A DNA stretch of 64,000 nucleotides from Gemmatimonadota bacterium (lineage in GTDB: Bacteria; Gemmatimonadota; Gemmatimonadetes; Palauibacterales; Palauibacteraceae). The notes under the pieces were generated by a model. The model was not told the DNA's origin and made no database searches. It worked only from the letters and a program-made list of their open reading frames with translations. The translations under genes and the position numbers were made by a program. The stretch spans positions 2,624,001 to 2,688,000 of the forward strand of contig OY762926.1 in assembly GCA_963666735.1 (NCBI GenBank), given 5' to 3'. Below, one piece after another: positions 33,369 through 49,920 of the stretch (positions are counted from its first letter, which is position 1; each line of letters opens with the position of its first letter).

Positions 33369-33511
33369 CGCGTCCGCACGGCAGAACCGATGCGGCGGTA
33401 TCAACGGGATGTTTAGATGATGCCGCTGGGAAAAGTTCAAGCTCAGGGCGACGGGGATGAGGCTCAGGCGACGCCCCGGGCCGACAGTTGCGTTCGACGC
33501 CACGGTTGAGG

Positions 33512-33578
33512 GTCTTGCGCAACCACGCCCATATGGCTAAAGGTTTCGGGAGATAGTCCCCTGACCCGGGAGGACCAA
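33512..33578 (+). promoter_or_regulatory. Conserved cassette promoter/leader, copy 1
   Basis: GTCTTGCG-N16-GCTA-N15-AGTCCCCT-N4-CGGGAGG-N5-ATG; same motif spacing as 47559-47631. Confidence 0.6.
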
Positions 33579-33818
33579 ATGTTGCGCCTCAAGTCGTTCC
33601 TTCGCCCGCCTCTGTACCTCTTGCTCCTCGTGCTCGCGCTTCCGGTTACCGTGCGGGAAGTTACCGCCGCGAACCTGCTGGACTGTGAATCCCAGTGCTC
33701 GCACATGAGCGCGATAGTGTATCGGGAAGCGCTGGACGACGGCCACACTCCTACAGGTGCCAGAGCCATAGCCCGGCGTGCGTACAACAGGTGTATGAAA
33801 AACTGCGGCCCCGAATGA
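33579..33818 (+). CDS. Small secreted Cys-rich peptide (CxxxC-x31-CxxxC)
   Basis: Strong RBS GGGAGG, signal peptide, ATGA overlap with the downstream propeller gene. Confidence 0.75.
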   Translation: MLRLKSFLRPPLYLLLLVLALPVTVREVTAANLLDCESQCSHMSAIVYREALDDGHTPTGARAIARRAYNRCMKNCGPE

Positions 33819-34912
33819 GATACTGCGGCCGCTTCGTGACAGGCCGGAGCCCGGCGCTTATCGTCCTGCTCACCACTGCCTGTGGTGGGCCGGGCGATTT
33901 GCCCGCCCCCCAGTACGTCGAGCCCATCGCTTCCACGGAGGTCCCGGCGAGTCTATCCCGGTCACTTGTTCTGCTTGAAGGCGGTATCGCCTGTGTAACA
34001 GAGACGTACTGGCACCGCATCGTCTGTACGCATCCCCGTGGCGAATCGCTTGCGTTCGGCACGAAGGGTGAGGGTCCGGGCGAACTCCTTTTCCCCGAGG
34101 TCGTGTTACGGGCACAAGACGGGATGATCGGTGTGCTGGACACCGAACTGCACCGCCTGTCTCTGTTCACGGAAGCGGGCGAGTTCGTGAAGGCCACATC
34201 AGATTTTCCTTTGGGGTTCCGTGGATACGAGCGGAAGGTGGTAGGGGAGACGTTAGTCGGCTCCTATCGCGATCAATCGCGGAATCTGATGTTCGCGGAG
34301 ATTGAGTTAGCGACGGGTCGTGTCCTTCGGGAGCGGATTTTTCCCCTCGAGAACGATGTTGTCGACTGCTCGACGCAAAGTGCGACAAATAGGCGGCTTA
34401 GCGCTGGATACTCAGGATCCGACCGAAGCCTCCTGTTCGTAGCGTGCCACGGTGAGTTTCTGGTGTGGTACGCCGACCGTAAGGATGCGGAACCGGCGGC
34501 CATCGTCCGATCAACCTACGTTGAGCGGTATCCGTCCGACCGTGAAGTGGCCTCGGTTGTACGTACGCTGCAAACGGAGCCCTGGATTGCCACTAGCGAA
34601 GAAGAGGTAAGGGCAACACCCAAGGTTTGGTACGGGCCGAGGGTCGTGGATGACAGGGGACGGTTCTGGGCGGTGTCGCGCTGGGAGTATCTTGAAGACG
34701 TGATTCCGCGTACGAGCTACATCGATTTGTTCGACCTTACGAGCGAGGGTCCACGGTACGCGCTCACGCTGGAGTTGCAGGACAAGGTGATCGGGATGGA
34801 TGTCCTCGACGATACGCTTGCCGTCCTCGTTGAGCGTGATGCTGGCAACGTGCAAGCGGAGCGGCGCGTGGACTGGTACGATATTTTGACCGTGGGTGAT
34901 CTCAAGTTTTAG
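33815..34912 (+). CDS. Six-bladed beta-propeller (NHL/TolB-like) lipoprotein
   Basis: Lipobox LTTAC, FGTKGEGPGEL, VVDDRGRFWAV, terminal VDWYDI. Confidence 0.82.
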   Translation: MRYCGRFVTGRSPALIVLLTTACGGPGDLPAPQYVEPIASTEVPASLSRSLVLLEGGIACVTETYWHRIVCTHPRGESLAFGTKGEGPGELLFPEVVLRAQDGMIGVLDTELHRLSLFTEAGEFVKATSDFPLGFRGYERKVVGETLVGSYRDQSRNLMFAEIELATGRVLRERIFPLENDVVDCSTQSATNRRLSAGYSGSDRSLLFVACHGEFLVWYADRKDAEPAAIVRSTYVERYPSDREVASVVRTLQTEPWIATSEEEVRATPKVWYGPRVVDDRGRFWAVSRWEYLEDVIPRTSYIDLFDLTSEGPRYALTLELQDKVIGMDVLDDTLAVLVERDAGNVQAERRVDWYDILTVGDLKF

Positions 34913-34988
34913 CCGAGGATCGCGCGTGCGCGCGGACGTCGGCTACGAGTCGCCCGTGAGCGTCGAGCGGGTGAGACGGAAAGGCGGC

Positions 34989-37202
34989 GTGATTCTCCCA
35001 GGGCGAAATCTACGCCGCCACACTTTCGGTGCGGGGTGCGCTTCCGACCCCCCGGGGCTGGCCCGGGGAGAGAACGCCACGACTCGCGACCGGCCGCGAA
35101 GACGGAGTAAGTCTACCGCAAGGGCGGCGGTCGCTGCGGCGCTGTCTATGCCGATCGCCCTTGGAGGCCAGGAAATCCCCGCAGCGTCGGCCGCGGCTCC
35201 GCAGGCCGGGGTCTCCGATGGTTGGAACTCCGAGGCGGCCCTTCTCCTCATCGAGCGCGCGATCGAGGCGCGGCGGCACGCCTGGGCCGACAGTTCCCTG
35301 CAACGATTACGGGCCGACGTGCAGGGGCATGTCTACTACCTGGGCGACATCCTCGGGGAACGGCACGTCATCCGGGCGGACCAGCTCGCGCTGGATGTCC
35401 GCTGGCAGAACCCGGACCGGACGATGCAGACGATCGTCGGGCGCCGGCACGAACGCCGGCTGCCGACGACCATCCATTATCACCTCGACCACCTCTTTCT
35501 CGTCCTCGACAACTTCGGGGATCGGATCCGGCTCGGAGACGGCCTCGAGATCCGCAACGTGCTCCATCCCGCGGGGGCGGGCGCGCGTACGTTCTACGAA
35601 TACCGGCTCGCGGACTCGCTCGAGATCCGGCTCCGCGACCGAACCGCCCGGGTCTTCGAGTTGGAGGTCCGCCCGCAGGAAGCGACGGCCGCGGGCGCGG
35701 TGGGGTCGCTCTTCGTCGAACGGGAGACGGGGGCCATCGCGCGCATGCGGCTCACGTTCACCCGTGCCGCCTATCGCGATCCGCAGATCGTGCGGCTCGT
35801 CGTCGACCTGCGCTCGGCGCTGTGGGAAGGCCGTTACTGGCTGCCCGACGAGCAGGAGGTCGAGATCGCGCGATCGCTTCCGTGGTTCGACTTTCCGCTC
35901 GAGACGCTGATCCGGACCCGCCTCCGCGTCCTCGACTACGAATTCGACGAGGAGGCGCTCTTCAGCCTGGGCGCCGGCCAGCTCATCTACAGCTATCGCG
36001 AGGAGGAACTGGCCCGCTTCGATGCATGGGAAGACCCGCTCTACGGGGGGCCCCTCGAGGAGGGAGGCGCCGACGGCGATCCGGAGGCGGCGGTCGCGAA
36101 GGCCCGCGAGCTTCTGCGGCGGCAGACGCTGCTCGGCGGCCGACGCTGGCAACTCGCGCTTCCGAACGCGTCGGGGGGAATCCGCGCGCGGCGTTCCGAG
36201 GGCCTGTTCATCGGGGCCGGCGGCGCCTACCGGCCGGACGATCTCACGCGGGTGTCGTTCGGGGGCGGCCACGCGGTCGGGGCGGCGCGGCCCCAGGCGA
36301 GCCTCGGAGTTCGGCGCCGGCTGGGAGGGGTCGACATCGAGATCGACGGGTGGCTCAGGACTCATCGCGACGCGGGACCGACCGCGGGCGCGGGGGTGCT
36401 GCGCACGCTCGCGCTCCTCGCCGAGGGAGAGGACTACGAGGACCCGTACCTCGCCACCGGCGGACGGATCGGGATCGCGCGCCGCGGCGGCCCCGTGCGC
36501 TGGCGCGTGGGCGCGTCCTTCGAGAGCCACGAGCGGGCGGATCTCGTCGTCGGGACCGAACTGTTCGGCGACCGGCCGCTTCGCCCCGTGCGTCCCGTCG
36601 ACGAGGGGGAACTCGCACGGCTCGATGCGGGCGTGACGGTGGACCTCGCGAGCGGCCCGGGCGCGCGCTGGGGGCTGGAACTCGCGGGCGAAGCGGCGGC
36701 GAGCGGCGTCGGGAACTTCGGCTACACGCGCGCCACCGTCGCGCTGCGGGCCGCCCGCGGCGGCTCGGACGGCGCGTGGGACTGGGCGAGTGGCGTGGAA
36801 TTCGGTCTCGCCGGCGGGGAGTTGCCGGCCCAGCGGCTCTTTCTGCTCGGCGGACGCGGTTCGCTGCCCGGCTACGAGTTCCGCGGCTGGGGCGGGGACC
36901 GCATGGCGCTGTGGCGCGCCGAGGTGTCCCGCGCCATCGCCTCCCCCTGGGTGCGGTTGCGCGCCGTCGGCGCCATCGGCTGGGCCGGACTCGGGAGCCC
37001 GGGGGAGGACGCCGCCCGCCGCTTCGGCGTGAGCGGAACCGAGGGGCTGCGCGCCTCGGCCGGAGTGGGCCTGGGCCTCTTCTACGACATCCTACGCCTC
37101 GACGTCATGCGCGGCCTGCGCGGCGGTCCGGCACCCGACGGGAGCGAAGGGAACTGGGTCGTCCTCCTCTCCGTGGACCCCCGATTCCTCAGGATCCTGT
37201 GA
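34989..37202 (+). CDS. Outer-membrane beta-barrel protein with N-terminal periplasmic domain (start uncertain)
   Basis: Signal-like AAVAAALSMPIALGG-Q; C-terminal LGGRGSLPGYEFR, GVGLGLFYDILRLDV amphipathic strands. Confidence 0.75.
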   Translation: MILPGRNLRRHTFGAGCASDPPGLARGENATTRDRPRRRSKSTARAAVAAALSMPIALGGQEIPAASAAAPQAGVSDGWNSEAALLLIERAIEARRHAWADSSLQRLRADVQGHVYYLGDILGERHVIRADQLALDVRWQNPDRTMQTIVGRRHERRLPTTIHYHLDHLFLVLDNFGDRIRLGDGLEIRNVLHPAGAGARTFYEYRLADSLEIRLRDRTARVFELEVRPQEATAAGAVGSLFVERETGAIARMRLTFTRAAYRDPQIVRLVVDLRSALWEGRYWLPDEQEVEIARSLPWFDFPLETLIRTRLRVLDYEFDEEALFSLGAGQLIYSYREEELARFDAWEDPLYGGPLEEGGADGDPEAAVAKARELLRRQTLLGGRRWQLALPNASGGIRARRSEGLFIGAGGAYRPDDLTRVSFGGGHAVGAARPQASLGVRRRLGGVDIEIDGWLRTHRDAGPTAGAGVLRTLALLAEGEDYEDPYLATGGRIGIARRGGPVRWRVGASFESHERADLVVGTELFGDRPLRPVRPVDEGELARLDAGVTVDLASGPGARWGLELAGEAAASGVGNFGYTRATVALRAARGGSDGAWDWASGVEFGLAGGELPAQRLFLLGGRGSLPGYEFRGWGGDRMALWRAEVSRAIASPWVRLRAVGAIGWAGLGSPGEDAARRFGVSGTEGLRASAGVGLGLFYDILRLDVMRGLRGGPAPDGSEGNWVVLLSVDPRFLRIL

Positions 37203-37232
37203 CGCCCCCACTGGTGCAGGAGCGTAGCCTCA

Positions 37233-37509
37233 TTGGCGATCCCGCAGCGGACGACCGAGTGTCGTACCGGAGCGGCCCGCCTAACCGCCGCCGAGCGCGT
37301 CGCGCTGACGGATGTGCTCACGAACGCTATCTTAGGCGGCGATGGCGACGGGGGCGGTCCTGGCGCGGAATCTTGCTCTGTAAACTGCAAGTTCGCGCAT
37401 GATGATTGCTCGGTTACCTGCCAGGATGGGTATTATGCTTGCTGCGACCACAAGTTTCTGGTTCGGTACCAGCTGTGGCTGCGAAGAGCAGACTCCGACC
37501 ATAATGTGA
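37233..37509 (+). pseudogene. Frameshifted Cys-rich peptide with a double-glycine-like leader
   Basis: Removing one T from TTT 37455-37457 gives ...ILGG-DGDGGGPGAESCSVNCKFAHDDCSVTCQDGYYACCDHKFWFGTSCGCEEQTPTIM*, ending just before the propeller ATG at 37519. Confidence 0.6.
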
Positions 37510-37518
37510 GCGGTCCCG

Positions 37519-38676
37519 ATGATTATATCACCTATGAGGATACGGCGTTGGCTATGCGGTTGCGGCGCGCTCGGCGCGATGTGGAGCGGCAGTGCCGCAG
37601 ATCCCGCAAGCGCGCTCCAAGCGGAGTGGCATTTGGCGGTCGCGCCGGTCTCGGAGTTTGGCCTTCGGGAAGGGCTGCCGCTGCACCGTGTCACCGGCGC
37701 GGTGGTTCTAGCGGATGGCCGCCTTGTTATCGCCGACGCCGGGAACCACCGTTTGCTGCATGTCTCGGCACAGGGTGAGTTGGTTCGTACGCTCGGACGC
37801 AAAGGCGGCGGACCTGGTGAATTCGAGTCGATCACCGCTCTGTTCGCGACGGACACGACCGTGTTGGCTTACGACGCTATGCAGTCGCGCGTAACCGTGT
37901 GGAACCTCGACGGGAACCCCACAGTATATCGATTGCCGGCGCCGCAGCAGCGACCCACGGCACTTGCCGCCATAGCTTCCGCTTCGGAATGGATATTGAC
38001 CGGCAATGAACCCCTTGAGACCACGAGTAGGGGATTGGTGACGCAGGAGGCATCGATCCTAACGTACGATCCGGTGGAGGATCGGTCCGTGAGGGTGGAT
38101 CGCCGACCGGTGAGATACGGATACGTCAGGTGGAGCGGGGACCGCTATTCACAGGGGTCTACACAGTTCCGGATGGGCTTCCTGGGATCGGCTCACATCG
38201 CGGGGAAGGCCGGCAGATGGTTTTTCGTTCCTATCGACAGCGCGGTTGTGGAGATCCGCGATGCAACGGAAGAGGCGGACCCCACAAAGATGCACCTGCC
38301 CATGGAGAGCGGGCCCTACTCGGTGCGGAAACTGAGGGAAGCGCGAGACGGTCTCATCTCCATCTCTTCAAGTTCGCACGCGAACCGGCTCAGGCAAGTG
38401 TATGACGATGTGGAGAGGAACCTGCCGCCGCGGACGCCGCCCGCTCGGCGAGTGCTAATGCTTGGCGAGAGTCTGTGGGTTGAGCGGTTTGAGTCCCGTA
38501 CGGACGGCAGTTCTGTTTGGCTGGTGGTCGATCCGAGTGAGCGCAAGGTCTTGGCTACGGCAGTCATCGCGCCGGGAATCACTTTGCTCGGCGGGAACGG
38601 GAGCGTGGCGGTCGTACTCACGCGGACGGAGCTGGGGGAAGAGGTAGTGAGTGTTCGGTCGATCCTACGCCCCTGA
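37519..38676 (+). CDS. Secreted six-bladed beta-propeller protein
   Basis: DGRLVIADAGNHRLL, LGRKGGGPGEF, LWVE, ELGEEVVSV. Confidence 0.82.
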   Translation: MIISPMRIRRWLCGCGALGAMWSGSAADPASALQAEWHLAVAPVSEFGLREGLPLHRVTGAVVLADGRLVIADAGNHRLLHVSAQGELVRTLGRKGGGPGEFESITALFATDTTVLAYDAMQSRVTVWNLDGNPTVYRLPAPQQRPTALAAIASASEWILTGNEPLETTSRGLVTQEASILTYDPVEDRSVRVDRRPVRYGYVRWSGDRYSQGSTQFRMGFLGSAHIAGKAGRWFFVPIDSAVVEIRDATEEADPTKMHLPMESGPYSVRKLREARDGLISISSSSHANRLRQVYDDVERNLPPRTPPARRVLMLGESLWVERFESRTDGSSVWLVVDPSERKVLATAVIAPGITLLGGNGSVAVVLTRTELGEEVVSVRSILRP

Positions 38677-38940
38677 GCACGCCGGGTTGGAGGTGCCCAG
38701 GCCGTCTCAACCGATCCAATAGCCGCCCCTCTTCGGACCTGCGCCTGTTCGTGGCCGGTGCGTTGAGACCGTTGGACCAACCTGGTCGAACACCCGACCC
38801 TCGCCGCCACCTCGGCGGGTGTTTGCCCGCTCCCGATTCAGTCCCCGGCCTCGAACCCGTACCGCTTCGATCAGGCTTCGTACGCTCCTCGCTGGCCCAT
38901 CGTGGCCGGGAGTCTTGTTTCCCCGGGCGGGCGATGTAAG

Positions 38941-38955
38941 GATTCACCGTGAATC
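38941..38955. promoter_or_regulatory. Perfect inverted repeat GATTCAC-C-GTGAATC upstream of the oxidoreductase operon
   Basis: Seen directly, 33 nt upstream of the ATG at 38989. Confidence 0.4.
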
Positions 38956-38988
38956 GTTGTGTCTCCAGCTCTTGCTTGAGGTTCGCCC

Positions 38989-39621
38989 ATGAGTGACGCC
39001 GAGATCACGACCGAGACGCCAACCGGTCATTCCCGAAGGACGTTCATCAAGGGGGTCATCGCGACCGGCGCGGTGGTCTCCTCCTCCAGCCATCTCTTTC
39101 GGGCCCGGAGCCTGTCGGCCAGCGCCGCGGTGCGGGCGTCGATGCCCCGCATGATCTCGCTGAACGTGAACGGCGTGTCGCGTTCGGTGGATGTCATGCC
39201 GCAGGAGACGCTGGCGATGACGCTGCGCTACAAGCTCGGGCTCACCGGCACGAAGCTCGGGTGCGACCGCGCGGAGTGCGGTGCCTGCACGGTGCTCATC
39301 GACGGGGTCTCCCACTACGCGTGCTCGATGCTGACGAACGTGGTGCGCGACCGGTCGGTGACGACGATCGAGGGACTCGAGGGCGCGGACGGCACGCTGC
39401 ACCCGGTGCAGCAGGCGGTGATCGACGAGGGTGGATTCCAGTGCGCCTTCTGCGCGCCCGGCTTCATCATGAGCATGGTCGCGCTCACGAACGAGAATCC
39501 CGAGCCCACGCGCCAGGAGACGGCGGAGGCGCTCTCCGGCAATCTCTGCCGCTGCGGGGACTACAACAAAATCCTGAACTCCGCCATGCGTGCCGCCGAG
39601 TACGCGCGGCGCACGGTGTGA
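38989..39621 (+). CDS. Tat-exported 2Fe-2S subunit (PaoA/YagT-like)
   Basis: Tat motif SRRTFIK; GTKLGCDRAECGACTV, QCAFCAPG, NLCRCG. Confidence 0.93.
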   Translation: MSDAEITTETPTGHSRRTFIKGVIATGAVVSSSSHLFRARSLSASAAVRASMPRMISLNVNGVSRSVDVMPQETLAMTLRYKLGLTGTKLGCDRAECGACTVLIDGVSHYACSMLTNVVRDRSVTTIEGLEGADGTLHPVQQAVIDEGGFQCAFCAPGFIMSMVALTNENPEPTRQETAEALSGNLCRCGDYNKILNSAMRAAEYARRTV

Positions 39622-39634
39622 GGGGAGGACGGTC

Positions 39635-42031
39635 ATGGCGCTAATCGGACAGGACATTTCGCCGCCGGATCTGCGCGCGAAAGTCACGGGACGAGCGAAG
39701 TACGCGGAGGACTTCCGGGCGGAGGGCATGGTGTTCGCCAAGCTCCTCCTCAGCCCCATGCCGCACGCCCGCGTGCGCAGCGTGGACGCGAGCGGCGCGC
39801 TCGCGATGCCCGGCGTGCTCGGGATTCTGCGGGCGAGCGAGGTCAACCAGCCCGACGCACCGGGCGAAGCCGCGCTCACGGATGAGCCGAAGTACGTGGG
39901 CGAGCCGATCCTCGCGCTGGCGGCGGTCGACGAGACGACGGCGGCGGACGCGATCGAGGCGATCGACATCGACCTTGAGCCGCTCCCCTTCGCGATCGAC
40001 CCGCTCGACAGCCTGCGGCCCGGCGGCCCGGACGCCCGTCTCGAGGGGAACGTGATGCGTGCCGGCGAGAGCGGGCGGGAATTCGTCTCCATGAAGTGGC
40101 CGCAGGCGGAGTTCGACGCGGCAGAAGCCGAGGGCCGGCTGCCGATGGGCGAGCCGGACTTCACCTGGGACCATGGCGACCTCGACGCCGCCTTCGACGC
40201 GGCGGACTACGTGCTCGAAGACACCGTGGTGCATCAGTCGCTGACCCACCATCCGATGGAGCCCCGCAGCTCCATGGCGTACTGGGACAACGGCCGCTGC
40301 TACCTGTACGGGTCCACGCAGAGCACGCAGCGCACGCACGGCGCACTGGCGGCGCAGCTCGACCTCGACCCCGAGAACCTCGTCTTCGTCGGACAGTACT
40401 GCGGCGGCGGCTTCGGATCCAAGATCGCCGGCGCCCCCATCTACCAGGTCACGGCCCTCCTCGCGAGGAAGATCCAGCGGCCGGTGATGATGCGGATCAA
40501 CCGCTACGAGGAAAACTACATCGGCCGCGGCCGACCGGGGTTCCAAGCTTGGACGAGGATGGGCTTCCGCAACGATGGGAAGATCACGGGGATCGATCTC
40601 TACATCGTGCAGGACCACGGACCGTACGGACGGTCCGGGGACTACATCCAGGCCGGGAACGTCGCCGACCTCATGTATCAGCCCGACGCGATGCGTTTCC
40701 GCGGCCTCACGCTCTACACGAACACCCCACCCCGGGCGGCGCAGCGGGGGCCGGGCGGCGCCCAGATCGTCGCCATGCTCGAGCCGCTCGTCGACAAGGC
40801 GGCGCGCGAACTGGGGCTGGACCGGGTGGAGGTCCGCAAGATCAACGCCCCGTCGCACGACTCCGAGTTCGGGCCGCAGCGGGCGACGACGACGAGCGCC
40901 TTCGTGCGCGAAGCGATCGATGCCGGCGCGGCGCAGTTCGACTGGGCCGGGAAGCAGGCGCTCAGCGGTCAGCGGAACGGTACGAAAGTCACGGGGGTCG
41001 GCGTGGGCCTCAGCCCCTATGTCGGCGGTTCCTCCGGCTTCGACGGGCTCCTCCTCATCCGCCCGGACGGGAAGCTGTACATCCACCAGGGGATCGGGAA
41101 CCTCGGCACGCACTCGATGGCGGACACGGCCCGCGCCGCGGCGGACGAACTCGGGCTCGAGTGGGACGACTGCGCGGTCATCTGGGGCGACAGCTCGCAG
41201 CACCATCCATACAGCTCGGTGCAGGCGGGAAGCCAGACGATCCACGCGCACACGCGCGCCAACTACGCCGCCGCACTCGACATGAAGCGGAAGCTGCAGG
41301 AGGTCGCGACCGCCGCGCTGGGCGGCTCGGCGAGCGCGTACCGGGTCGGTGGCGCGCGCGTGACCGGGCCGGGGGGCTCCATGAGCTTCTCGCAGGCTTC
41401 GGAGCGCGCGATCGCCATGGGCGGCGAATACTCCGGCGAGGAGTTGCCGGAGGACATCAACGACTACACTCGGGCTTCCGCGACGCAGCTTGCGGGCCAG
41501 GGCCTGATGGGCGTCGCCCGGGACAACTTCTCGCACGAGGGTTCGACGTGGTCGTGGGTCATGGGCTTCGCGGTCGTCGAACTCGACACCGAGACGGGCG
41601 ATGTGCGGCTCGTCGACTACACGGGGTCGGCCGACTGCGGGATCGTGGTGCACCCGCGCAGCCTCGCGGCGCAGATCCACGGCGGCAGCGTGCAGGGCTT
41701 CGGCCAGGCGCGCAGCCAAAAGTGGGTGTTCGACCCGAAGTGGGGCGTGCCCTTCGCCCACCGGCTCTATACCGCGAGACCTCCCGGCATCCTCGACGTG
41801 CCGCTCAGCATGGACTGGGCGGCGGCGGGCGAGCCGGACCCGCAGACGCCGATCGGCGCCAAGGGGATCGGAGAACCTCCGGTCGGGGCCGGGTCCGCGG
41901 CGGTCACCTCCGCGATCGCGGACGCGCTCGGCGGGCGCTGCCTGTGCCGGATCCCGCTGACGACGGACGTGATCCTGGCCGAACTCGAGGGCCGGGCGCA
42001 GCCGCACGCACTCACCGAGATCCACAGCTAG
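39635..42031 (+). CDS. Xanthine oxidoreductase-family Mo-cofactor subunit
   Basis: KVTGRAKYAED, HHPMEPR, GGGFGSK, QRGPG, AKGIGEPP. Confidence 0.93.
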   Translation: MALIGQDISPPDLRAKVTGRAKYAEDFRAEGMVFAKLLLSPMPHARVRSVDASGALAMPGVLGILRASEVNQPDAPGEAALTDEPKYVGEPILALAAVDETTAADAIEAIDIDLEPLPFAIDPLDSLRPGGPDARLEGNVMRAGESGREFVSMKWPQAEFDAAEAEGRLPMGEPDFTWDHGDLDAAFDAADYVLEDTVVHQSLTHHPMEPRSSMAYWDNGRCYLYGSTQSTQRTHGALAAQLDLDPENLVFVGQYCGGGFGSKIAGAPIYQVTALLARKIQRPVMMRINRYEENYIGRGRPGFQAWTRMGFRNDGKITGIDLYIVQDHGPYGRSGDYIQAGNVADLMYQPDAMRFRGLTLYTNTPPRAAQRGPGGAQIVAMLEPLVDKAARELGLDRVEVRKINAPSHDSEFGPQRATTTSAFVREAIDAGAAQFDWAGKQALSGQRNGTKVTGVGVGLSPYVGGSSGFDGLLLIRPDGKLYIHQGIGNLGTHSMADTARAAADELGLEWDDCAVIWGDSSQHHPYSSVQAGSQTIHAHTRANYAAALDMKRKLQEVATAALGGSASAYRVGGARVTGPGGSMSFSQASERAIAMGGEYSGEELPEDINDYTRASATQLAGQGLMGVARDNFSHEGSTWSWVMGFAVVELDTETGDVRLVDYTGSADCGIVVHPRSLAAQIHGGSVQGFGQARSQKWVFDPKWGVPFAHRLYTARPPGILDVPLSMDWAAAGEPDPQTPIGAKGIGEPPVGAGSAAVTSAIADALGGRCLCRIPLTTDVILAELEGRAQPHALTEIHS

Positions 42032-42044
42032 GGGAGATAGAACG

Positions 42045-43043: not shown

Positions 43044-43919
43044 ATGGAGATCCTCAGAACGGCGCCGAATCCCTGGGGCCAGGAGGTACTCGTCGGCGTC
43101 GCCTGGGATCTGCTCTGGGCCGCCGCCATCGCCGGCTTCGTGTTCGTGGTCGGACACCATCTATACGTCTGGATCATGGCGCCCAGGGCTCCGAAAAGCG
43201 CGCCGAAGGCGGCTCCCGAGGTGCCCGAGCGCGTGGAGCGCCACTCACAGGCGTCCCGGACGTTCCACTGGCTCATGGCGGCGACCATGCTCACGCTGCT
43301 CGTCACGGCGTTCTTCCCCGTGATCGGCGTCCAGTTCGCCTGGGTCACCATTCACTGGATCGCCGGCGTCGTCCTCACCCTCCTCATCATCTACCACATC
43401 ATCCACGCGACGACGAAACAGGATTTCTGGTCCGTGTGGACCGGGACGAAGGAACTCGGGCAGGCGTTCCAGGCGATCGGGAAGTTCCTGCGTCGCGAGC
43501 CGGCCAAGGAGGAGCGGTCCGGGAAGTACCCCCTCGACCAGCGCGCCTACCACAACGCCGTGACGCTCGTCTCGGGCGGCGTGATCGTCACGGGGATCCT
43601 CATGATGGTGGGCGTCGACACCTGGTTCTGGGCGAGTAATCCGTACTTCCTCGCCGACTCCACGTGGGGGCTCGTGTTCGTCATGCACGGGCTGTGCGGG
43701 GTCGGGCTCGTCACGATGGTCATCGCCCACGTCTACTTCGCCATCCGGCCCGAGAAGCGCTGGATGACCCGCTCCATGATCAAGGGCTGGATCACGCGCG
43801 AGGAATACCTCGAGCACTACGACCCGGACCTCTGGAAGCTGGGGACGGAGCCCGCCGGGGCCGAGTCGGCCGGAGGGAGCGCGTCGTCCGCGGATCCCGA
43901 CGGGGTCGTGCCCGCTTGA
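43044..43919 (+). CDS. FdnI-like di-haem cytochrome b membrane subunit
   Basis: RTFHW, TIHW, GKYPLDQRAYH, VMHG, IAHVYFAIRPE..RSMIKGWI....YLEHY. Confidence 0.85.
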   Translation: MEILRTAPNPWGQEVLVGVAWDLLWAAAIAGFVFVVGHHLYVWIMAPRAPKSAPKAAPEVPERVERHSQASRTFHWLMAATMLTLLVTAFFPVIGVQFAWVTIHWIAGVVLTLLIIYHIIHATTKQDFWSVWTGTKELGQAFQAIGKFLRREPAKEERSGKYPLDQRAYHNAVTLVSGGVIVTGILMMVGVDTWFWASNPYFLADSTWGLVFVMHGLCGVGLVTMVIAHVYFAIRPEKRWMTRSMIKGWITREEYLEHYDPDLWKLGTEPAGAESAGGSASSADPDGVVPA

Positions 43920-44302
43920 GCCGCGAGGAGCTGAAGGCTCACATCGAGGTCCTCGAGAAGGCGTACGAGTTCCTCCTCTCCTACGCCGCGCTCGGCGCCG
44001 AGCAGGAGGAAGCCTCGAAGGTCGGCGGCCAGTTGCGGGAATACCTGAGCCGGACGGATGCCGCGCTCCGGGCGCTGGCGAACGACCTCGGCGGCCTCGT
44101 CGCGGCGGAGGGACTCGAGCCGGCCGGCGCCTACGGAGAGATGATCGGCGTCACGTCCGCGGACGCCGCCCGGGCCGGGGCCGCCGTGCGGCTGGTCCTC
44201 ACCCAGGAGACGATCAGCTCGCAGTTGATCGACAACCTCAACGCCTCCTCCCACCTGCGGGCGCTCCTCACCGACCTCTTCCTCCTCGACGACGTCGTCT
44301 GA
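43916..44302 (+). CDS. Hypothetical helical protein, last gene of the oxidoreductase operon
   Basis: TTG start overlapping upstream TGA; EKAYEFLLSYAA...ISSQLIDNLNASSHLRALLTDLFLLDDVV. Confidence 0.75.
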   Translation: MSREELKAHIEVLEKAYEFLLSYAALGAEQEEASKVGGQLREYLSRTDAALRALANDLGGLVAAEGLEPAGAYGEMIGVTSADAARAGAAVRLVLTQETISSQLIDNLNASSHLRALLTDLFLLDDVV

Positions 44303-44312
44303 CCGAAACGCG
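44243..44312 (+). repeat. 70-bp direct repeat, copy 1 (3' end of gene 43916-44302)
   Basis: 68/70 identical to 45828-45897. Confidence 0.95.
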
Positions 44313-44348
44313 GCGGATTCGTTACCGCGTCTCTATCGCCTGAGTCCG

Positions 44349-45617
44349 TCAGGGGGTTCCGGCGCGGTCGGGGCAGTTGCGGTTGACCCGGTAGCGGTGG
44401 ACGTAGGGGACGCCGAATTCGCCGGGCGCCGTCGCCCAGACCTCGGTGCGACCGGCCCGGAGGATTCGCAGCCGCGGCTCCCAGTCTTTGTGGTCCGGCG
44501 GTCCCTCAATGCGCACCGAGCCCTCGAGTTCCCCGCCTTCAGCGTAGATCTCCCACACGTCGGCCGGGTCCGGCCACGCCTCGCGGAGGAGCCAGATCGA
44601 ACCGTCTCCGCCGGCCACGATCCGGCGCACGGGGGGATAATGCTCGGGAAAGGTGATGATTTCGCGTCCGATCCGCCGCTTGCGCCCGGGGTTGCCCGTG
44701 TCCCACGGAGACCCGCCCCGGGCCAGCTGGTCCGCCTTGAGTTCCCGCTGCAGCGATGCCTCGGCGCGCGTGACCGGCCGAGGTTCGTACGGGACCGCGC
44801 GATGGAGCAGGGTGTCGCCGTCGAACCGGATCTTCAGGAGATCGAAGCTCGCATCCGCCCGATCCTCCCTGACCTCCCCGATGAGGACGACGGCGGAGCC
44901 GTCCGGGGTCGCGGCAACCGGCAACCAGGACTCGCCCGCCCACGGACCGAGCGGATGCGAGGTCATCACTCCCCACCCGTACCGGTCCGTCTCGTGCTCG
45001 AGGGTGCGGGATGCCAGATGGCGTTCGACGATCGCGAGCGTGTCCACGACCTCGCCGGACGCCGAGACGCGGCGCAGGGCGGCCCGGTCGGCCTTCAGGA
45101 AGCGGTCCAGGTCCTCGTTCACGGTCCGGGAGGGCAGGAAGGCGCCGCCGGGTAGCGGCCTGCCGGGATTCAGGTTCGACCCCTCCTCCGGAAGCCGGAT
45201 CCGGAAGCTCACGCGATCGATCTCGGACCCATCGGCCGACAGGAACTGCGTACCGAGTCTGTGGCTTATCCACAACGTATCCCCCAGCCAGCCCACTTGG
45301 CGGGGCGGCGCGGGGAACTCGCCGGGTCCCTGGCCCTCGCGTCCGATCGTGCCCGCGGGTCGGCCGTCCGGCCAGAAGACGCGGATGGGATCCCAGGACT
45401 GGAGGAGGTACACTCTGCCGTCGGGCCCGATTGCCAAGTCCCGCACATAGGTGAGGGCCCCGTCACCGTCCACGGACCCCAGACGGAGCGTCTCCTCCAG
45501 TTCCCAGGGTCGTTCGCACACTTCCTGCCCCGCGAGCGGAGCCGCACCGAACGCCACGTACCCAGCCGCGACGCCGACCAGGGCGGCCGCCGCGCGGATC
45601 CGGCGGAGGCGCGTCAC
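44349..45617 (-). CDS. Secreted six-bladed beta-propeller protein (GTG 45617 preferred; ATG 45716 possible)
   Basis: Signal peptide, LRLGSVDG, DLAIGPDGRVYLL, IGREGQGPGEF, GGDGSIWL, FGVPYVHRYRV. Confidence 0.85.
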   Translation of the reverse strand: MTRLRRIRAAAALVGVAAGYVAFGAAPLAGQEVCERPWELEETLRLGSVDGDGALTYVRDLAIGPDGRVYLLQSWDPIRVFWPDGRPAGTIGREGQGPGEFPAPPRQVGWLGDTLWISHRLGTQFLSADGSEIDRVSFRIRLPEEGSNLNPGRPLPGGAFLPSRTVNEDLDRFLKADRAALRRVSASGEVVDTLAIVERHLASRTLEHETDRYGWGVMTSHPLGPWAGESWLPVAATPDGSAVVLIGEVREDRADASFDLLKIRFDGDTLLHRAVPYEPRPVTRAEASLQRELKADQLARGGSPWDTGNPGRKRRIGREIITFPEHYPPVRRIVAGGDGSIWLLREAWPDPADVWEIYAEGGELEGSVRIEGPPDHKDWEPRLRILRAGRTEVWATAPGEFGVPYVHRYRVNRNCPDRAGTP

Positions 45618-45827
45618 GCGCCGGCGTGCCGGGCGGCGAGGACCCCGGCTTCCAGCGAGACCTGGCTCATTGCGAGCGTCTCCCCCCCCCCCGCGGCGTC
45701 CAGTGGTCATATGCATCCACGGCGTCACCTCGTGCCCTCGGGTTTCGGCGACGCGCACGGGCCAGCAGGTCCAAGGGTCCGGGTCGTCCCCAAGCCCGAT
45801 GATGAGCCCCGGGCGCGACAGTCACAA

Positions 45828-45897
45828 GCCTCGTCCCACCTGCGGGCGCTCCTCACCGACCTCTTCCTCCTCGACGACGTCGTCTGACGGAAACGCG
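45828..45897 (+). repeat. 70-bp direct repeat, copy 2 (orphan gene 3' end ASSHLRALLTDLFLLDDVV*)
   Basis: 68/70 identical to 44243-44312. Confidence 0.95.
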
Positions 45898-45974
45898 TCA
45901 ACACTCCTCCCCGAGCGGCATCAGCCTGGTCAGGTTCGGCTGCCGATCCGCTGATCATTGATCGACCAGTCCCG

Positions 45975-46004
45975 ATGGCATAACGTTGCACCAATTGATG
46001 CCAT
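45975..46004. promoter_or_regulatory. Inverted repeat ATGGCAT-N16-ATGCCAT, probable TA autorepression operator
   Basis: Directly upstream of the antitoxin start. Confidence 0.5.
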
Positions 46005-46011
46005 GAAGTGA

Positions 46012-46275
46012 ATGCACAGGGAGCGACCGTTGAAAACCCTCACCGTACGGAAGATCCCTCCGGAACTTGCCCGCGCGCTGGATGCCGAAAAGCGACGCCG
46101 AGGCCGGTCGCTCAACCAGACCGTCATCGATCTCCTCCGCCAGAGCCTCGGGGTCGGGAGACGGAGGTCCAACGGCCTCGCGCGGTTCGCCGGCGACTGG
46201 ACCGAGGAGGAGTACCGGGAATTCAAGGAAGCGACGAGGGTGTTCGAGGAAATCGACGAGGAGATGTGGCGGTGA
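46012..46275 (+). CDS. Ribbon-helix-helix antitoxin (VapB/FitA-like)
   Basis: LTVRKIPPELARALDAE...SLNQTVIDLL; acidic C-terminus; GTGA-coupled to the PIN toxin. Confidence 0.85.
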   Translation: MHRERPLKTLTVRKIPPELARALDAEKRRRGRSLNQTVIDLLRQSLGVGRRRSNGLARFAGDWTEEEYREFKEATRVFEEIDEEMWR

Positions 46276-46667
46276 CTCGCTACTGCCTGGACACGTCGGC
46301 CTACAGTCGTTTTCGTCGCGGGCACCGCCGGCTGGCCGAGGTGCTGGACTCGGGCGCGTGGATCGGTGTGCCCGCGACCGTGATTGGCGAGTTGCGCTAT
46401 GGCTTCCAGGTGGGCGGACGCCGGGCGTACAACGAGGCGAAGCTGTCGGACTTTCTTGCCAGTCCGGCGGTCGAGGTGCTGGAGGTGAATGAGGATGTGG
46501 CGGCGTGTTACGCCGACATCGTGGCGGCGTTGCGCCGGGCCGGCACACCCGTACCCGCGAACGACGCCTGGATCGCAGCCTGCGCGGCGCACACCGGTTC
46601 AACGGTGCTCACCGCAGACGCGCACTTCGAACGCATCCGGCGCATCGGCGTTCTCACGGTCTCGTGA
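46272..46667 (+). CDS. vapC: PIN-domain ribonuclease toxin
   Basis: CLDTSAY, VIGEL, PANDAWIAA, LTADAHF. Confidence 0.92.
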   Translation: MTRYCLDTSAYSRFRRGHRRLAEVLDSGAWIGVPATVIGELRYGFQVGGRRAYNEAKLSDFLASPAVEVLEVNEDVAACYADIVAALRRAGTPVPANDAWIAACAAHTGSTVLTADAHFERIRRIGVLTVS

Positions 46668-46679
46668 GCCGCCTCGGGG

Positions 46680-47387
46680 TTATCCTTCCGTGCGGGTGAA
46701 GGTAAAGGTGCCGATGGGTTCGTCGGAGAAGGGAGTCACGCCCCGCAGGCTGTGAATCGGTTCCCTCGGCTGGGTATCGTCGTTGGCCGAATTGTAGGAA
46801 GGCCCGCTGTCCGTCCCCGCGTCGTAGGGGTAGAGGACGACCTCGAGTTCGCCGACCCAGTTGCCCGCGGCGTCGCGCAGCGGCAGGTCCGACACTCCCA
46901 CGAACCAGTCCGGGCTCGGGGCAATCATCGTGACGAGGGTGACGAGCGGGAAGTCCTCGCGAAGCGTGACCGCCTGAATCGTCGTGCTTCCGGGACTGCG
47001 GATCCCGGACCCGTTGATGACCGCCAGCGCGTTCGCCGGGATTTCGGCCCGGATCTCATTCGTCAGAGCACTGGTGCTTCCGGTTTCCGCCATGCTCTCG
47101 ATCCCCGGCGTGGCGGTGCCCTCCGGTGCCCAGAAGGTCGCGTCTTCGTCGTGCACGGCGCCGATCAGCGGCGAGAAGTGCGCCCCTCCCGGGAAGTTGG
47201 CCGGGTGCGTGGAGGCACTCCACGTCGCCTCGAAGACCACGCGGTACGTCGCCGTGGTCGCCGTTGCCGGGGGCGGCTCCGGGTCGGGCCTCGGCGCCGG
47301 GTCGGTCCCGGCGCCGCCGCACGCGAGCGTGGCGAGGACCGCAACCGCCAGCGGTCCGATCCAAGTGTTCGAGAACGTCGGCAACAT
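46680..47387 (-). CDS. Spondin_N-domain lipoprotein
   Basis: Lipobox TLAC; YRVVFEATWS..THP.NFP..AHFSPLIGAVH, MIAPSPDWFVGV, YDAGTDSG. Confidence 0.9.
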   Translation of the reverse strand: MLPTFSNTWIGPLAVAVLATLACGGAGTDPAPRPDPEPPPATATTATYRVVFEATWSASTHPANFPGGAHFSPLIGAVHDEDATFWAPEGTATPGIESMAETGSTSALTNEIRAEIPANALAVINGSGIRSPGSTTIQAVTLREDFPLVTLVTMIAPSPDWFVGVSDLPLRDAAGNWVGELEVVLYPYDAGTDSGPSYNSANDDTQPREPIHSLRGVTPFSDEPIGTFTFTRTEG

Positions 47388-47440
47388 TGGGTTCACGGTG
47401 GCTCTAACCCGTGAAGTCCCGCCAGGTTCCGGCGGCAATC

Positions 47441-47512
47441 TCAGGCTTTCGCGTGCCAGGCGGAGTGAGCCTCCGTCTCTCGCTTGGCGGGGCAACCGAC
47501 CTGGGGCTCCGC
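47441..47512 (-). repeat. Decayed duplicate of the epimerase gene 3' end (49926-49997)
   Basis: Ungapped 47/72 nt identity with a 13-nt exact core; AEPQVGCPAKRETEAHSAWHAKA* versus AAPVAGLPAELEAEVLAAWHARV*. Confidence 0.75.
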
Positions 47513-47558
47513 AGGTAATGAGGGAATCAACGTAATTCCGATACCGATACTCTCAGTA

Positions 47559-47631
47559 GTCTTGCGTAGAGTAGCATCACGTGCTACGGCTTCTTCGAGC
47601 GAGTCCCCTTCCAATCTCGGGAGGCGCCAGA
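47559..47631 (+). promoter_or_regulatory. Conserved cassette promoter/leader, copy 2
   Basis: GTCTTGCG-N16-GCTA-N15-AGTCCCCT-N8-CGGGAGG-N7-ATG. Confidence 0.6.
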
Positions 47632-48120
47632 ATGTCCTGCTTCAACTACTTCCAGAGGTCCGCAGTATTCGTCACGCGGGTCGTCGCCCTGCGGGTGCCG
47701 TCTGTCACCGCCACCACGCCGGGAGCACCGCTGTTCCGCCGAATCGTGGCCTCGGTGCTCGTTGCCACGATAGCAGTTCCTTCGCTGGCAAATGCTCGCG
47801 AACTCCCCGAGGACGAGGGACTGGAGCACGCTCTGCCACCCGCGGCAGCTCCCGTTGCCCAAGCGGGCATGAGTCTCAACGGCTGCCCTTCGCTAAACGG
47901 AGTCCCCGGGGCGGGAGGCTGCGTGACGGTGTGGCTGACGTGGGACGTCGCCATGAGTACGCCGGGCCCCGTCAGCGTCACCATCACCTTGCTCGAGCGT
48001 CGGATCGAATGTGTAAGCTGCGACTGCATATGGACCTACGAGGACAGCAATGGGCATCTGCGGCTCTTGCGGGACACGTGGCTTGACTGCGGAAGCAGCC
48101 ACGACGACGACTTGATGTGA
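47632..48120 (+). CDS. Small secreted Cys-rich protein (six Cys in the mature part)
   Basis: RBS GGGAGG; signal-like RRIVASVLVATIAVPSLANA; GTGA overlap with the propeller gene. Confidence 0.7.
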   Translation: MSCFNYFQRSAVFVTRVVALRVPSVTATTPGAPLFRRIVASVLVATIAVPSLANARELPEDEGLEHALPPAAAPVAQAGMSLNGCPSLNGVPGAGGCVTVWLTWDVAMSTPGPVSVTITLLERRIECVSCDCIWTYEDSNGHLRLLRDTWLDCGSSHDDDLM

Positions 48121-49264
48121 AGTCGATTCTCCGAAATGGCACGGTCGCGGTAGCACTCACGTTCCTCGCGGTGGCATGTGGGGACGGGGGCGGCGAGGTG
48201 GATCCGATAAGGGTGGCCGGATACCGCGTTTGGATACCCGGCCCGCTCGTTGAGCGGTACCCCCCGGACCCACACGACCTTCAGGCGGAGGACATCGTTG
48301 AAGGCGGCCTGGATCTTGCGGTGGGTGTAGGGGAGGGGGAAGGGATATACGTCCTCGATGCGGGGGCGAGGCACGTCCTGCGCCTGGACGGTGACGCAAC
48401 GCTGCAAGCCGTGATCGGCCGTCCCGGTGGTGGCCCCGGAGAGTTAGGAGCGCCGGTCTCGATCGAGGCGGACCTGCGGGGTGGTGTTTGGGTGGCGGAC
48501 AGGCAACACCATCGGCTGTCGCGCTTCGATTCAGACGGAGAACTCCTGGAGGAAACGCCGGTACCCTCGACGGTGCGTGGCTTCACGGTGCTGCCGAACG
48601 GCACGTTGCTGTACCGCAAGTTTGAGAACGGGGTGGCCACGCTGGCGCTGCACTCGGGGCGAGGGGCCGTGGATCTAGCCGCGGATCTTCCGGCGGAGTT
48701 GGCGCCGCAGGACTTGGCCTCCTACCTGGCTGAGTACGACCTTGAGTTTGCAGTGCTCGCCCCGGACACCGTCATCGCTTTCCGGAATTCGGGTCTTCGC
48801 GCCTACGGGGCATGGCGGATGGCGCTCGACACCTCGTCAGCTCGGATCACCGACATCGCCCGGGTGCCCATGCCCGTTTGGCTCTCAGAGGCGATTCGCG
48901 CCCAAGCGGAGGAAATCGAAGCATCCGCCCCCGAACGGGCCGAGGGATTCCGCCATCCGCTCGCAGATCGATCATCCCGTTCTCCAGGGGCGCGCGTATG
49001 GCCTCAGGCGATTTCTGGATCGTGCCGCATGTCATCGGCGGCACCGTGACTGCCACGACGATCCCTCTCCTGTCGGGCGATTCCGTTACCATCGTCCTAC
49101 GGTCGAGACCCTTGCGGGAGATAGATCGTTGCAACGGCAAGGTGGACTATGCGGTGTTCGGGGAAAGGTTGGCGATGCTCTGCAGCGACGAATTGCGCGT
49201 CTATGCGTTGCAGCGCGTCGAACCGGAAAGGTTGCCATTCGATACGAACCCGGCTGACGGGTGA
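48117..49264 (+). pseudogene. Six-bladed beta-propeller/NHL lipoprotein with a frameshift near 48950-48970
   Basis: Lipobox AVAC, IYVLDAG, IGRPGGGPGEL, VWVADR; the C-terminal blades continue in the frame of ORF 48812-49264, whose TGA overlaps the next GTG. Confidence 0.72.
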
Positions 49265-49920
49265 GGGAGGACCGGCTCCCAACCCGAACCCTCCCCCTCT
49301 ATCGGCGTCTTCTGCTGCTGCTCTTGAGACCGGGGCGTCTCTTCACGATGCTGCGGGAGGAACCCGTTTGGAAGGATGCGCTCGCGTGGCAGGTTCTTCT
49401 TGGCGCGCTGCTCTCCATCGCAGCGGCCATCGACACGCTCCCTCGCGTCTTCGAGTTCGGATCCGTGGCCCCGGTCGCCAGCCTTGCGACCCTTGGCATC
49501 GCCGCGGGGCTCGCCGTCTTGGTGGCCAGCCTCGCTGTTCCGCTGTTCTACGCTTCGGTGGCGGCCGTCCTGTTCATCGGCGTGAGATTCGTCATGCGGT
49601 GCGCCGTGTCCTTCGCCGAGATCTTCAGCGCCACGGTGCATGCGGCGTATGTCCTGCTCCTGGGCAGAATGATCACGTCGCTCCCGCCTCTTTCCGGGGC
49701 ATCTCTCATGGGCCCTCCGCAGCTTGGCTTTCGGCAACCCGCTCCCGACACCTCTTTCGGACCCTTACTGGTCGCGGGAGTCGTGGAGGCAGCGTTCTTC
49801 GCGCTGTTGGGCGTTGCGTTATGCCGGGTTTGTGGCCGTCGCCGGGTCGCCGTGGCGGCTGCGTTGGGAATTGCACTCTACGTGGCGACTATCGCGCTGA
49901 CGTTCGTGTTCCGGCTTTAG
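49261..49920 (+). CDS. Yip1-like membrane protein
   Basis: LLLRPGRLFTMLREEPVWK N-terminal motif, about five TM helices. Confidence 0.65.
   Translation: MREDRLPTRTLPLYRRLLLLLLRPGRLFTMLREEPVWKDALAWQVLLGALLSIAAAIDTLPRVFEFGSVAPVASLATLGIAAGLAVLVASLAVPLFYASVAAVLFIGVRFVMRCAVSFAEIFSATVHAAYVLLLGRMITSLPPLSGASLMGPPQLGFRQPAPDTSFGPLLVAGVVEAAFFALLGVALCRVCGRRRVAVAAALGIALYVATIALTFVFRL

What the first reader, a model, noticed from the sequence alone, without database searches (positions are those of the whole stretch)
33512..49920. Repeated 'small Cys-rich secreted peptide + six-bladed beta-propeller' cassettes: candidate undescribed variable ligand/receptor or toxin/immunity system
Seen in sequence: three visibly less GC-rich patches (33.5-34.9, 37.2-38.7, 47.6-49.9 kb) have the same layout. 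Each is a short Cys-rich ORF (4, 8 and 6 Cys in the predicted mature part) tightly coupled (ATGA or GTGA overlap, or a 9-nt gap) to a 365-385 aa secreted or lipoprotein propeller carrying the GxxGxGPGE motif. A fourth propeller (44.3-45.6 kb) has an 18-aa minigene in the peptide position. The peptides are unrelated to each other and the propellers are highly divergent, so the architecture is conserved while the sequence is not. Established knowledge: a loosely similar pairing exists in Bacteroidetes (NVEALA-type small proteins before TolB-like propellers), function unknown. Inference: these are cognate pairs, either a disulfide-rich antimicrobial or signal peptide with its immunity/receptor/chaperone propeller, exchanged as modules.
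Basis: partly seen in the sequence, partly recalled or inferred. Interest (0 to 1): 0.86.

Follow-up and report, generated by a model that had tools for sequence, protein, structure and literature searches.

The report
Swappable cysteine-peptide and propeller partner cassettes
A sponge-associated bacterium carries many recently inserted gene pairs in which each family of small cysteine-rich protein, predicted to be exported, travels with its own family of propeller-shaped protein; the propeller is often kept after the peptide is lost, so it likely binds the peptide and would protect against it, though binding and toxicity are untested.

Summary
Real, genome-wide and family-specific; three details are wrong. 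Cassette 1 is intact. The cassette-2 peptide and cassette-3 propeller are broken in this strain, and the "18-aa minigene" is a duplicated epimerase tail.

16 of 77 propellers have a secreted Cys-rich ORF directly upstream, against 1 of 777 control genes. The cassettes are absent at the same sites in congeners. Each peptide family pairs with one propeller clade (34 of 35 hairpin-peptide loci), also across families. Propellers persist without peptide under purifying selection (6 of 17 genomes), but no genome had the peptide alone. DsbA-like genes sit in several cassettes; one is a conserved DsbA-propeller fusion.

New here: unrelated cassettes share a promoter-leader with a 13-bp repeat in 1-10 copies, which elsewhere heads variable-tail lipoproteins (M15 peptidase) plus partner genes.

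Best reading (0.45): an exported disulfide-bonded effector with a cognate binding/immunity propeller. The peptides are acidic, so not classical cationic antimicrobials. No binding, expression or toxicity is shown. The scan found this pairing before on other DNA; my literature searches found no description.

The parts
33515..33578 (+). Shared leader of cassette 1: sigma70-like TTGCGC-17-TAAAGG, one degenerate copy of the 13-bp unit (33548-33560), ribosome-binding site
   Evidence: Same layout at 29 tandem-array sites in the genus. The promoter is read by eye and was not called by the consensus scan.
33579..33818 (+). Peptide 1: 79 aa, hydrophobic leader, 4-Cys helical hairpin (CxxxC...CxxxC)
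   Evidence: (helices 30-53 and 58-74, core pLDDT above 90); no Pfam family
33815..34912 (+). Propeller 1: 365-aa lipoprotein, NHL-type six-bladed propeller, intact
   Evidence: clade
34939..35004 (.). 66-bp IS3-family remnant near the right junction of cassette 1
   Evidence: 81% identical to 8 other places in the genome; 6 of them checked, all at the end of one transposase gene; the IS3 label is recalled
37278..37509 (+). Peptide 2, pseudogene: 8-Cys core split over two frames, 5' part with start and signal missing
   Evidence: a 223-aa secreted homologous precursor lies upstream of the P2 homologue in L059
37519..38676 (+). Propeller 2: 385 aa, signal-like N-terminus, intact, DUF5128/NHL
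   Evidence: passes PF17170 and PF01436 cut-offs
44349..45617 (-). Propeller 4: 422 aa, orphan; its clade includes a peptide-DsbA-propeller cassette at G000:2942-2944 kb
   Evidence: dN/dS 0.17-0.20 against orthologues in L033 and L036
45614..45897 (.). Relics, not a peptide gene: epimerase 3'-end copy (includes the 18-aa 'minigene') and an 83-bp copy of the 3' end of the gene at 43916-44302
47562..47631 (+). Shared leader of cassette 3 (TTGCGT-17-TACGGC, one degenerate 13-bp unit, ribosome-binding site)
47632..48120 (+). Peptide 3: 162 aa, hydrophobic leader, 6 Cys with CxxCxC, acidic (net about -11)
48117..49264 (+). Propeller 3: lipoprotein, frameshifted near 48.95 kb in this strain
49261..49920 (+). 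Yip1/YknW-like multi-pass membrane protein, coupled to propeller 3
   Evidence: NCBIfam YknW 24.5 bits, below the cut-off of 110; Atlas lead Yip1 at 0.87-0.88, under 0.9; follows the propeller in 8 of 11 homologous loci

Best explanation
These are recently inserted two- or three-gene modules in which each family of small cysteine-rich protein, predicted to be exported and disulfide-bonded, is inherited with one clade of NHL-type propeller; the propeller likely binds its cognate peptide in the cell envelope and would act as its immunity or capture protein in competition among sponge microbes. SHOWN: coupling, enrichment, empty sites in relatives, clade-specific pairing, purifying selection on both genes, peptide loss with propeller retention, DsbA neighbours and a fusion, and a shared repeat-variable leader. 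INFERRED: (1) both proteins are co-translated and exported by Sec; (2) a DsbA-like enzyme, cassette-encoded in some cases, forms the disulfides; (3) the propeller binds the mature peptide; (4) the peptide acts on other cells; (5) orphan propellers protect against, or intercept, neighbours' peptides; (6) repeat number in the leader varies expression between cells.
For: Enrichment: 16 of 77 vs 1 of 777. Empty sites: cassettes 1 and 2 in 11 of 11 congener loci, cassette 3 in 9 of 9. Pairing: 34 of 35 hairpin-peptide loci have a P1-clade propeller directly downstream (E 1e-59 or better; unrelated propellers 1e-15 or worse); the 35th is at a contig end. All 22 hairpin-paired propellers fall in one clade and no clade mixes the named peptide classes; peptide and propeller similarity correlate, r=0.90 over 34 pairs. 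One-sided loss: P1-clade propeller in 17 of 36 genus genomes, peptide in 11, all among the 17; 7 of 11 P3 homologues lack a peptide. Orphan pairs keep dN/dS 0.19-0.50 (median 0.29, 13 pairs), like paired ones (median 0.34), including orphans that share a site. Seven tandem propellers without a detected peptide at G000:2382-2391 kb recall homogeneous polyimmunity loci (PMC3482391, passages). Peptide cores evolve faster than their propellers in 25 of 26 pairs. The same leader heads 9 large Cys-rich lipoproteins with variable tails (peptidase M15 in 3, one above cut-off; HExxH by eye in 4), each followed by a secreted partner gene in the 7 with room. Yip1-domain genes occur in bacteriocin clusters, with a suggested role in immunity or transport (PMC11580447, passages).
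Against: No peptide matches a known toxin, bacteriocin or any Pfam family, and all 24 scored are acidic or neutral. Cassette 3 has an intact peptide with a frameshifted propeller, which strict self-toxicity would disfavour; an intact 57%-identical paralogue with its Yip1-like gene exists at G000:2866 kb, but cross-protection is assumed. 3 of 29 leader arrays head a small secreted Cys protein with no propeller hit. The conserved DsbA-propeller fusion points equally to a folding role. About 60 of 77 propellers have no peptide by the strict rule, and an 11-member clade has none in this genome, so many may never have had one. Peptide dN/dS is above 1 in only 1 of 26 pairs. Linkage alone produces some co-inheritance, and kin genomes are not independent.
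Confidence: 0.45

Rival explanations
1. Maturation and display: the propeller is a dedicated folding or holding partner that works with DsbA, and the peptide-propeller complex is a variable surface ligand facing the sponge host or other microbes.
For: 5 of 7 DsbA-like hits in the genome adjoin propellers (3 were seeds). A membrane-anchored DsbA-propeller fusion follows a 6-Cys peptide, and 36 of 51 homologues cover 90% or more of it with a thioredoxin family. H. pylori DsbI has a beta-propeller (PMC4597128, passages). The closest solved folds are animal NHL domains. The DNA occurs in sponge metagenomes. Lipobox-like motif in 20 of 62 propellers.
Against: A pure chaperone should decay once its client is gone, yet 6 genomes keep the P1-clade propeller with no hairpin peptide found, and orphans stay under purifying selection.
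Confidence: 0.25
2. Signal and receptor: the peptides are strain-identity or quorum signals, the propellers are their receptors, and orphan propellers eavesdrop.
For: Acidic disulfide-rich peptides, family-specific partners and orphan retention fit this too. An AraC-type gene lies near one cassette.
Against: I saw no kinase or transducer coupled to the cassettes in the 20 neighbourhoods listed (output partly cut). The propellers have no transmembrane signalling part, and the cassettes are recent, scattered and often broken.
Confidence: 0.15
3. No interaction: propellers are general surface-binding proteins and the peptides hitch-hike on the same mobile DNA.
For: Most propellers are unpaired; linkage explains co-inheritance at short distances.
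Against: The pairing holds at about 30% propeller identity and across two families. No hairpin peptide with downstream sequence lacked the cognate clade (34 of 34). Reading frames are coupled by overlap.
Confidence: 0.08
4. Metal-binding or redox-buffering mini-proteins with a propeller as loader or receiver.
For: Acidic, Cys-rich peptides.
Against: DsbA-type neighbours imply disulfides rather than free thiols. Many unrelated Cys patterns and rapid turnover do not suit one metal. No metal-handling genes were seen beside the cassettes listed.
Confidence: 0.07

Closest known systems
Polymorphic toxin/immunity systems and polyimmunity loci (PMC3482391, passages); Myxococcus SitAI lipoprotein toxin cassettes (PMC8546572, passages)
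   Same: Exported variable protein followed by a coupled cognate partner, on mobile DNA; orphan partners and tandem arrays; a shared 5' region in front of unrelated cargo.
   Different: The cargo is a 45-140-residue disulfide mini-protein with no recognisable toxin domain and no conserved escort domain. The partner is an exported propeller. Toxicity is not shown.
Bacteroidota NVEALA (PF14055) small proteins beside DUF5128/TolB-like six-bladed propellers
   Same: Small exported protein directly before a DUF5128-like propeller; a Bacteroides structural-genomics propeller (3s9j) is among the fold matches (Z 16.4).
   Different: No peptide here hits NVEALA; many unrelated Cys patterns; genus-specific repeat leader. 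0 papers hold 'NVEALA' or 'DUF5128'.
Thioredoxin-plus-propeller proteins: H. pylori DsbI (PMC4597128, passages); NHLRC2 and SOQ1 (recalled, not read)
   Same: Redox domain joined to a beta-propeller, as in the fusion at G000:2420.8-2422.6 kb.
   Different: DsbI is a DsbB-like membrane partner. Here a DsbA-type domain is usually a separate gene or absent, and the module comes with a cognate peptide.
Bacteriocin clusters with Yip1-domain proteins (PMC11580447, passages)
   Same: Small peptide gene with a Yip1-like membrane gene (cassette 3).
   Different: Those peptides are leaderless or circular. These have Sec-type leaders, disulfides and acidic charge, and the Yip1 assignment is below cut-off.
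NHL-repeat 'eukaryote-like proteins' of sponge symbionts (search listing only)
   Same: NHL-type propellers expanded (about 82) in a sponge-associated genome.
   Different: No cognate peptide genes are known to me for that class (recalled).

Membership tests
DUF5128 / NHL-type six-bladed propeller | Six-bladed NHL-type fold | tested here: met
   P1 model vs Brat NHL: Z 20.6, rmsd 3.3, 259 aligned; profile hits are all NHL domains
DUF5128 / NHL-type six-bladed propeller | Pfam PF17170 gathering score | tested here: inconclusive
   P2 passes (26.4 vs 22.9); P3 12.2; P1 and P4 no hit
NVEALA (PF14055) peptides | Match to the Pfam model | tested here: not met
   No Pfam family for the 3 window peptide ORFs or the other small ORFs scanned
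Polymorphic toxin/immunity system | Exported effector gene coupled to a cognate downstream partner | tested here: met
Polymorphic toxin/immunity system | Conserved N-terminal trafficking domain with a variable, recognisable toxin domain | tested here: not met
   Only a short 5' leader is shared; no toxin domain in the peptides. The large lipoproteins behind the same leader come closer.
Polymorphic toxin/immunity system | Orphan partner genes and tandem arrays kept by selection | tested here: met
Polymorphic toxin/immunity system | Toxicity neutralised by the partner | not testable with these tools
   Needs an experiment
Class II / cationic bacteriocin | Cationic mature peptide | tested here: not met
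   24 of 24 have net charge between -12 and +1
Class II / cationic bacteriocin | Double-glycine leader with a C39 ABC exporter | tested here: inconclusive
   Leaders are Sec-like and no exporter was seen in the neighbourhoods listed (partly cut); no genome-wide exporter search was run
Yip1/YknW membrane proteins (gene 49261-49920) | Curated family score | tested here: inconclusive
   YknW 24.5 bits vs cut-off 110; no Pfam hit; Atlas lead under 0.9
Phase variation by tandem repeats (leader) | Repeat copy number varies between close copies | tested here: met
   1 vs 3 copies in near-identical paralogues at G000:333 and 336 kb; 2-10 or more across arrays
Phase variation by tandem repeats (leader) | Copy number changes expression | tested here: inconclusive
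   No correlation with predicted ribosome-site accessibility (rho -0.08, P 0.65, 35 leaders); expression itself not measurable here

The most novel reading that the evidence does not exclude
A widespread, undescribed class of bacterial conflict or identity system: a library of unrelated disulfide mini-protein folds, each matched to its own propeller binder, swapped between bacterial families inside sponges, collected as orphan binders, and expressed from a shared repeat-variable leader that also drives peptidoglycan-peptidase lipoproteins. It would be a bacterial counterpart of linked ligand/receptor self-recognition loci.
Probability: 0.3. Interest if true: 0.9.

Novelty: new variant of a known kind. 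Interest (0 to 1): 0.72.

Why it matters
DUF5128-type propellers are among the largest unexplained families in this genome (about 82 copies). Cognate peptides give them testable ligands and a matrix of matched and mismatched pairs. If the peptides act on other cells, this is a new source of stable natural mini-proteins and a mechanism for strain-level competition or recognition in sponge microbiomes. The repeat leader gives a DNA handle for finding further members without protein similarity.

Tried and rejected
Complex prediction of P1 with peptide 1, folded without alignments: no verdict, score 0.01; not evidence either way. No RNA holder listed. No clear fold match for peptide 1 in the PDB or the Atlas (best 0.82). 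The metagenome scan with P2 found no confirmed relative; the peptide alignment was too variable for a second scan. The 18-aa minigene as a peptide: rejected. Assembly error as the cause of the frameshifts: rejected. A double-glycine leader in the cassette-2 relic: considered by eye and dropped, because the homologue in L059 is a Sec-type precursor. Repeat number controlling ribosome-site access: no support. The consensus scan of 33350-35000 did not call the proposed promoter and found no terminator. The 66-bp repeat as a cassette recombination site: rejected, it is a transposase-end remnant; no target duplication seen at the three junctions. The careful search of the 99-row tree did not finish, so the quick tree is cited; 15 canonical-NHL or fragment ORFs of the 97 hits were left out of counts, and 5 more incomplete ones for the 77. 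Literature: 'NVEALA' 0 papers, 'DUF5128' 0; searches listed nothing on this pairing; the Palauibacterales paper has 0 occurrences of propeller, NHL or bacteriocin in its main text. No supplements were read.
Full report
SETTING. The window lies in a single-contig 3.98-Mb genome of 68.5% GC. Its DNA is held by runs of several studies, some labelled sponge metagenome. Named records that carry the same leader element or close protein homologues are Candidatus Palauibacter, Gemmatimonadota, so the genus is inferred from these.

OBSERVATION. The three low-GC patches and four GxxGxGPGE proteins are real. Cassette 1 is intact. The cassette-2 peptide is a pseudogene here: six Cys lie in one frame, two plus the stop in another, and no start or signal remains. 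Short-read contigs of X1 and X5 equal the window, while X9 and X12 differ by one base in length there and X12 holds 155 more bases upstream. Propeller 3 is frameshifted near 48.95 kb. The minigene before propeller 4 is a copy of the epimerase 3' end. The P1 model is an NHL-type six-bladed propeller, and peptide 1 is predicted as a two-helix hairpin.

MORE THAN CHANCE. An iterated profile found 97 propeller ORFs, of which 82 are of this type with an N-terminal part. By one mechanical rule, 16 of 77 full-length ones have a secreted ORF with 4 or more Cys directly upstream, against 1 of 777 size-matched genes (P=6.5e-17), 1 of 267 signal-bearing genes and 1 of 119 low-GC genes. This is a lower bound, because broken peptides and three-gene forms are missed. 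Paired propellers are lower in GC (median 0.63) than unpaired ones (0.66) and the genome's genes (0.69).

MOBILITY. In 11 of 11 congener loci the genes flanking cassettes 1 and 2 are adjacent, and cassette 3 is absent from 9 of 9. The junctions show no target duplication. The sister of P1 in the tree is from another family of the class (support 100/99, 75% identical, with a similar peptide), and the AU test rejects that family's propellers as one clade, p=2.7e-50. I named that group after seeing the first tree, and the direction of transfer is not determined.

COGNATE PAIRING. Starting from the peptide: the hairpin profile matched 18 of 401 phylum genomes and 11 of 36 genus genomes. Of the 37 distinct matches, 35 were examined; 34 have a P1-clade propeller directly downstream and one lies at a contig end. 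That clade scores 1e-59 or better, while unrelated propellers score 1e-15 or worse. In a quick tree of 99 propellers, all 22 hairpin-paired ones form one clade with two unpaired paralogues, and the labels need 17 changes against a shuffled mean of 46.6. P3 homologues pair with CxxCxC peptides (4 of 11 loci), and the one good P2 homologue has a precursor with the same Cys pattern. Peptide and propeller similarities correlate (r=0.90, 34 pairs, 0 of 5000 permutations). Linkage and near-copies inflate this figure, so the deep-clade fidelity is the stronger point. Peptide cores are under purifying selection but evolve faster than their propellers (median dN/dS 0.53 vs 0.34; 25 of 26 pairs). Controls: 0.26-0.30 for the neighbouring outer-membrane gene and 0-0.11 for a core Fe-S gene.

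ONE-SIDED LOSS. P1-clade propellers occur in 17 of 36 genus genomes and the peptide in 11, all among the 17. Seven of 11 P3 homologues lack a peptide and keep the Yip1-like gene. Orphan pairs have dN/dS 0.19-0.50, and P4 with its orthologues 0.17-0.20. Peptide relics with intact propellers recur in this genome (2330, 2866, 1922 and 3064 kb, and cassette 2). The reverse case also exists: cassette 3.

DsbA LINK. Five of 7 DsbA-like hits adjoin propellers, three of them being the seeds of the profile. The clade of P4 includes a peptide-DsbA-propeller cassette and a copy with a truncated DsbA. One gene fuses a membrane-anchored DsbA domain to a propeller behind a 6-Cys peptide, and 36 of 51 homologues span the fusion.

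SHARED LEADER. Cassettes 1 and 3, though unrelated, start with the same element: a sigma70-like promoter read by eye, a 13-bp unit GGG(A/C)G(C/T)GAGTCCC, and CCCGGGAGG before the start codon. Tandem arrays of the unit occur in 12 of 114 family genomes, all in this genus; the reversed control gave 0. Of 29 arrays, 17 precede a small secreted Cys-containing ORF plus propeller, 3 a small secreted Cys protein without a propeller hit, and 9 a large Cys-rich lipoprotein. Three of these lipoproteins end in a peptidase M15 domain (one above cut-off), four show an HExxH motif by eye, and the seven with room are followed by a secreted gene of no known family. Copy number runs from 1 to 10 or more, and is 1 versus 3 in two near-identical paralogous cassettes. 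It does not track predicted ribosome-site access.

MECHANISM. Cognate fidelity with fast peptide change points to a specific protein-protein contact (inferred). A partner kept without its peptide, never the reverse among genomes, together with orphan arrays and a leader shared with enzyme-tailed lipoprotein/partner pairs, fits effector and immunity best (0.45). The DsbA fusion keeps a folding/display role alive (0.25), and signalling is possible (0.15). Against toxicity: acidic peptides, no known toxin homologue, and cassette 3's broken propeller.

KNOWN SYSTEMS. It works like polymorphic toxin/immunity cassettes (PMC3482391 and PMC8546572, passages seen) but lacks their escort and toxin domains, so it is not filed as a member. 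It is not NVEALA by Pfam. DsbI (PMC4597128, passages) and Yip1 in bacteriocin clusters (PMC11580447, passages) are partial parallels. PMC10469786 (passages) does not mention propellers. Searches found no description; subscription papers and supplements were not seen. The scan noted this pairing before: 13 findings in at least 11 genomes, and one more cassette in this genome. The look-up for the repeat leader returned no finding with all its words.

VERDICT. Real and undescribed in what I could search; function untested. Interest 0.72.

Noticed in passing
L163, L169, L170, L173, L176, L177, L180 (first ORF after the repeat leader): Family of 440-650-aa Cys-rich lipoproteins with a shared N-terminal part and variable tails (peptidase M15 or HExxH), each followed by a 270-330-aa secreted gene: a candidate polymorphic effector/immunity family.
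   Followed up: partly
L048:9840-11561 (G000:2420.8-2422.6 kb): Membrane-anchored DsbA-propeller fusion behind a 6-Cys peptide; conserved family.
   Followed up: partly
L160:2581-3102, L165:370-912: 174- and 181-aa secreted proteins with hydrophobic Gly/Ala-rich Cys-bearing tails behind the repeat leader; no propeller, no Pfam family; bacteriocin-like by eye.
   Followed up: no
window 44230-47500: An 83-bp gene-end duplication and epimerase relics suggest a tandem duplication followed by reciprocal loss; in G007, G020 and G024 propeller 4 lies where cassette 3 is here.
   Followed up: partly
window 46012-46667: FitA-like/PIN (VapBC-type) toxin-antitoxin pair, patchy among congeners.
   Followed up: no
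window 46680-47495: Spondin_N lipoprotein-like gene, conserved at this site in congeners.
   Followed up: no
P0008, P0012, P0013, P0020: Large proteins with 5-16 tandem copies of the same 4-Cys helical hairpin as peptide 1.
   Followed up: no
L187 (G000:2382.5-2391.2 kb); L186 (G013:C8): Arrays of tandem propellers, mostly without peptides.
   Followed up: partly
window 35000-35163: The 5' end of the Omp85-like gene differs from congeners, as if replaced when cassette 1 was inserted.
   Followed up: no
L204, L213 (G206:966-970 kb): Three hairpin-peptide matches about 1.5 kb apart in a genome of another family; the two examined are followed by P1-clade propellers.
   Followed up: partly
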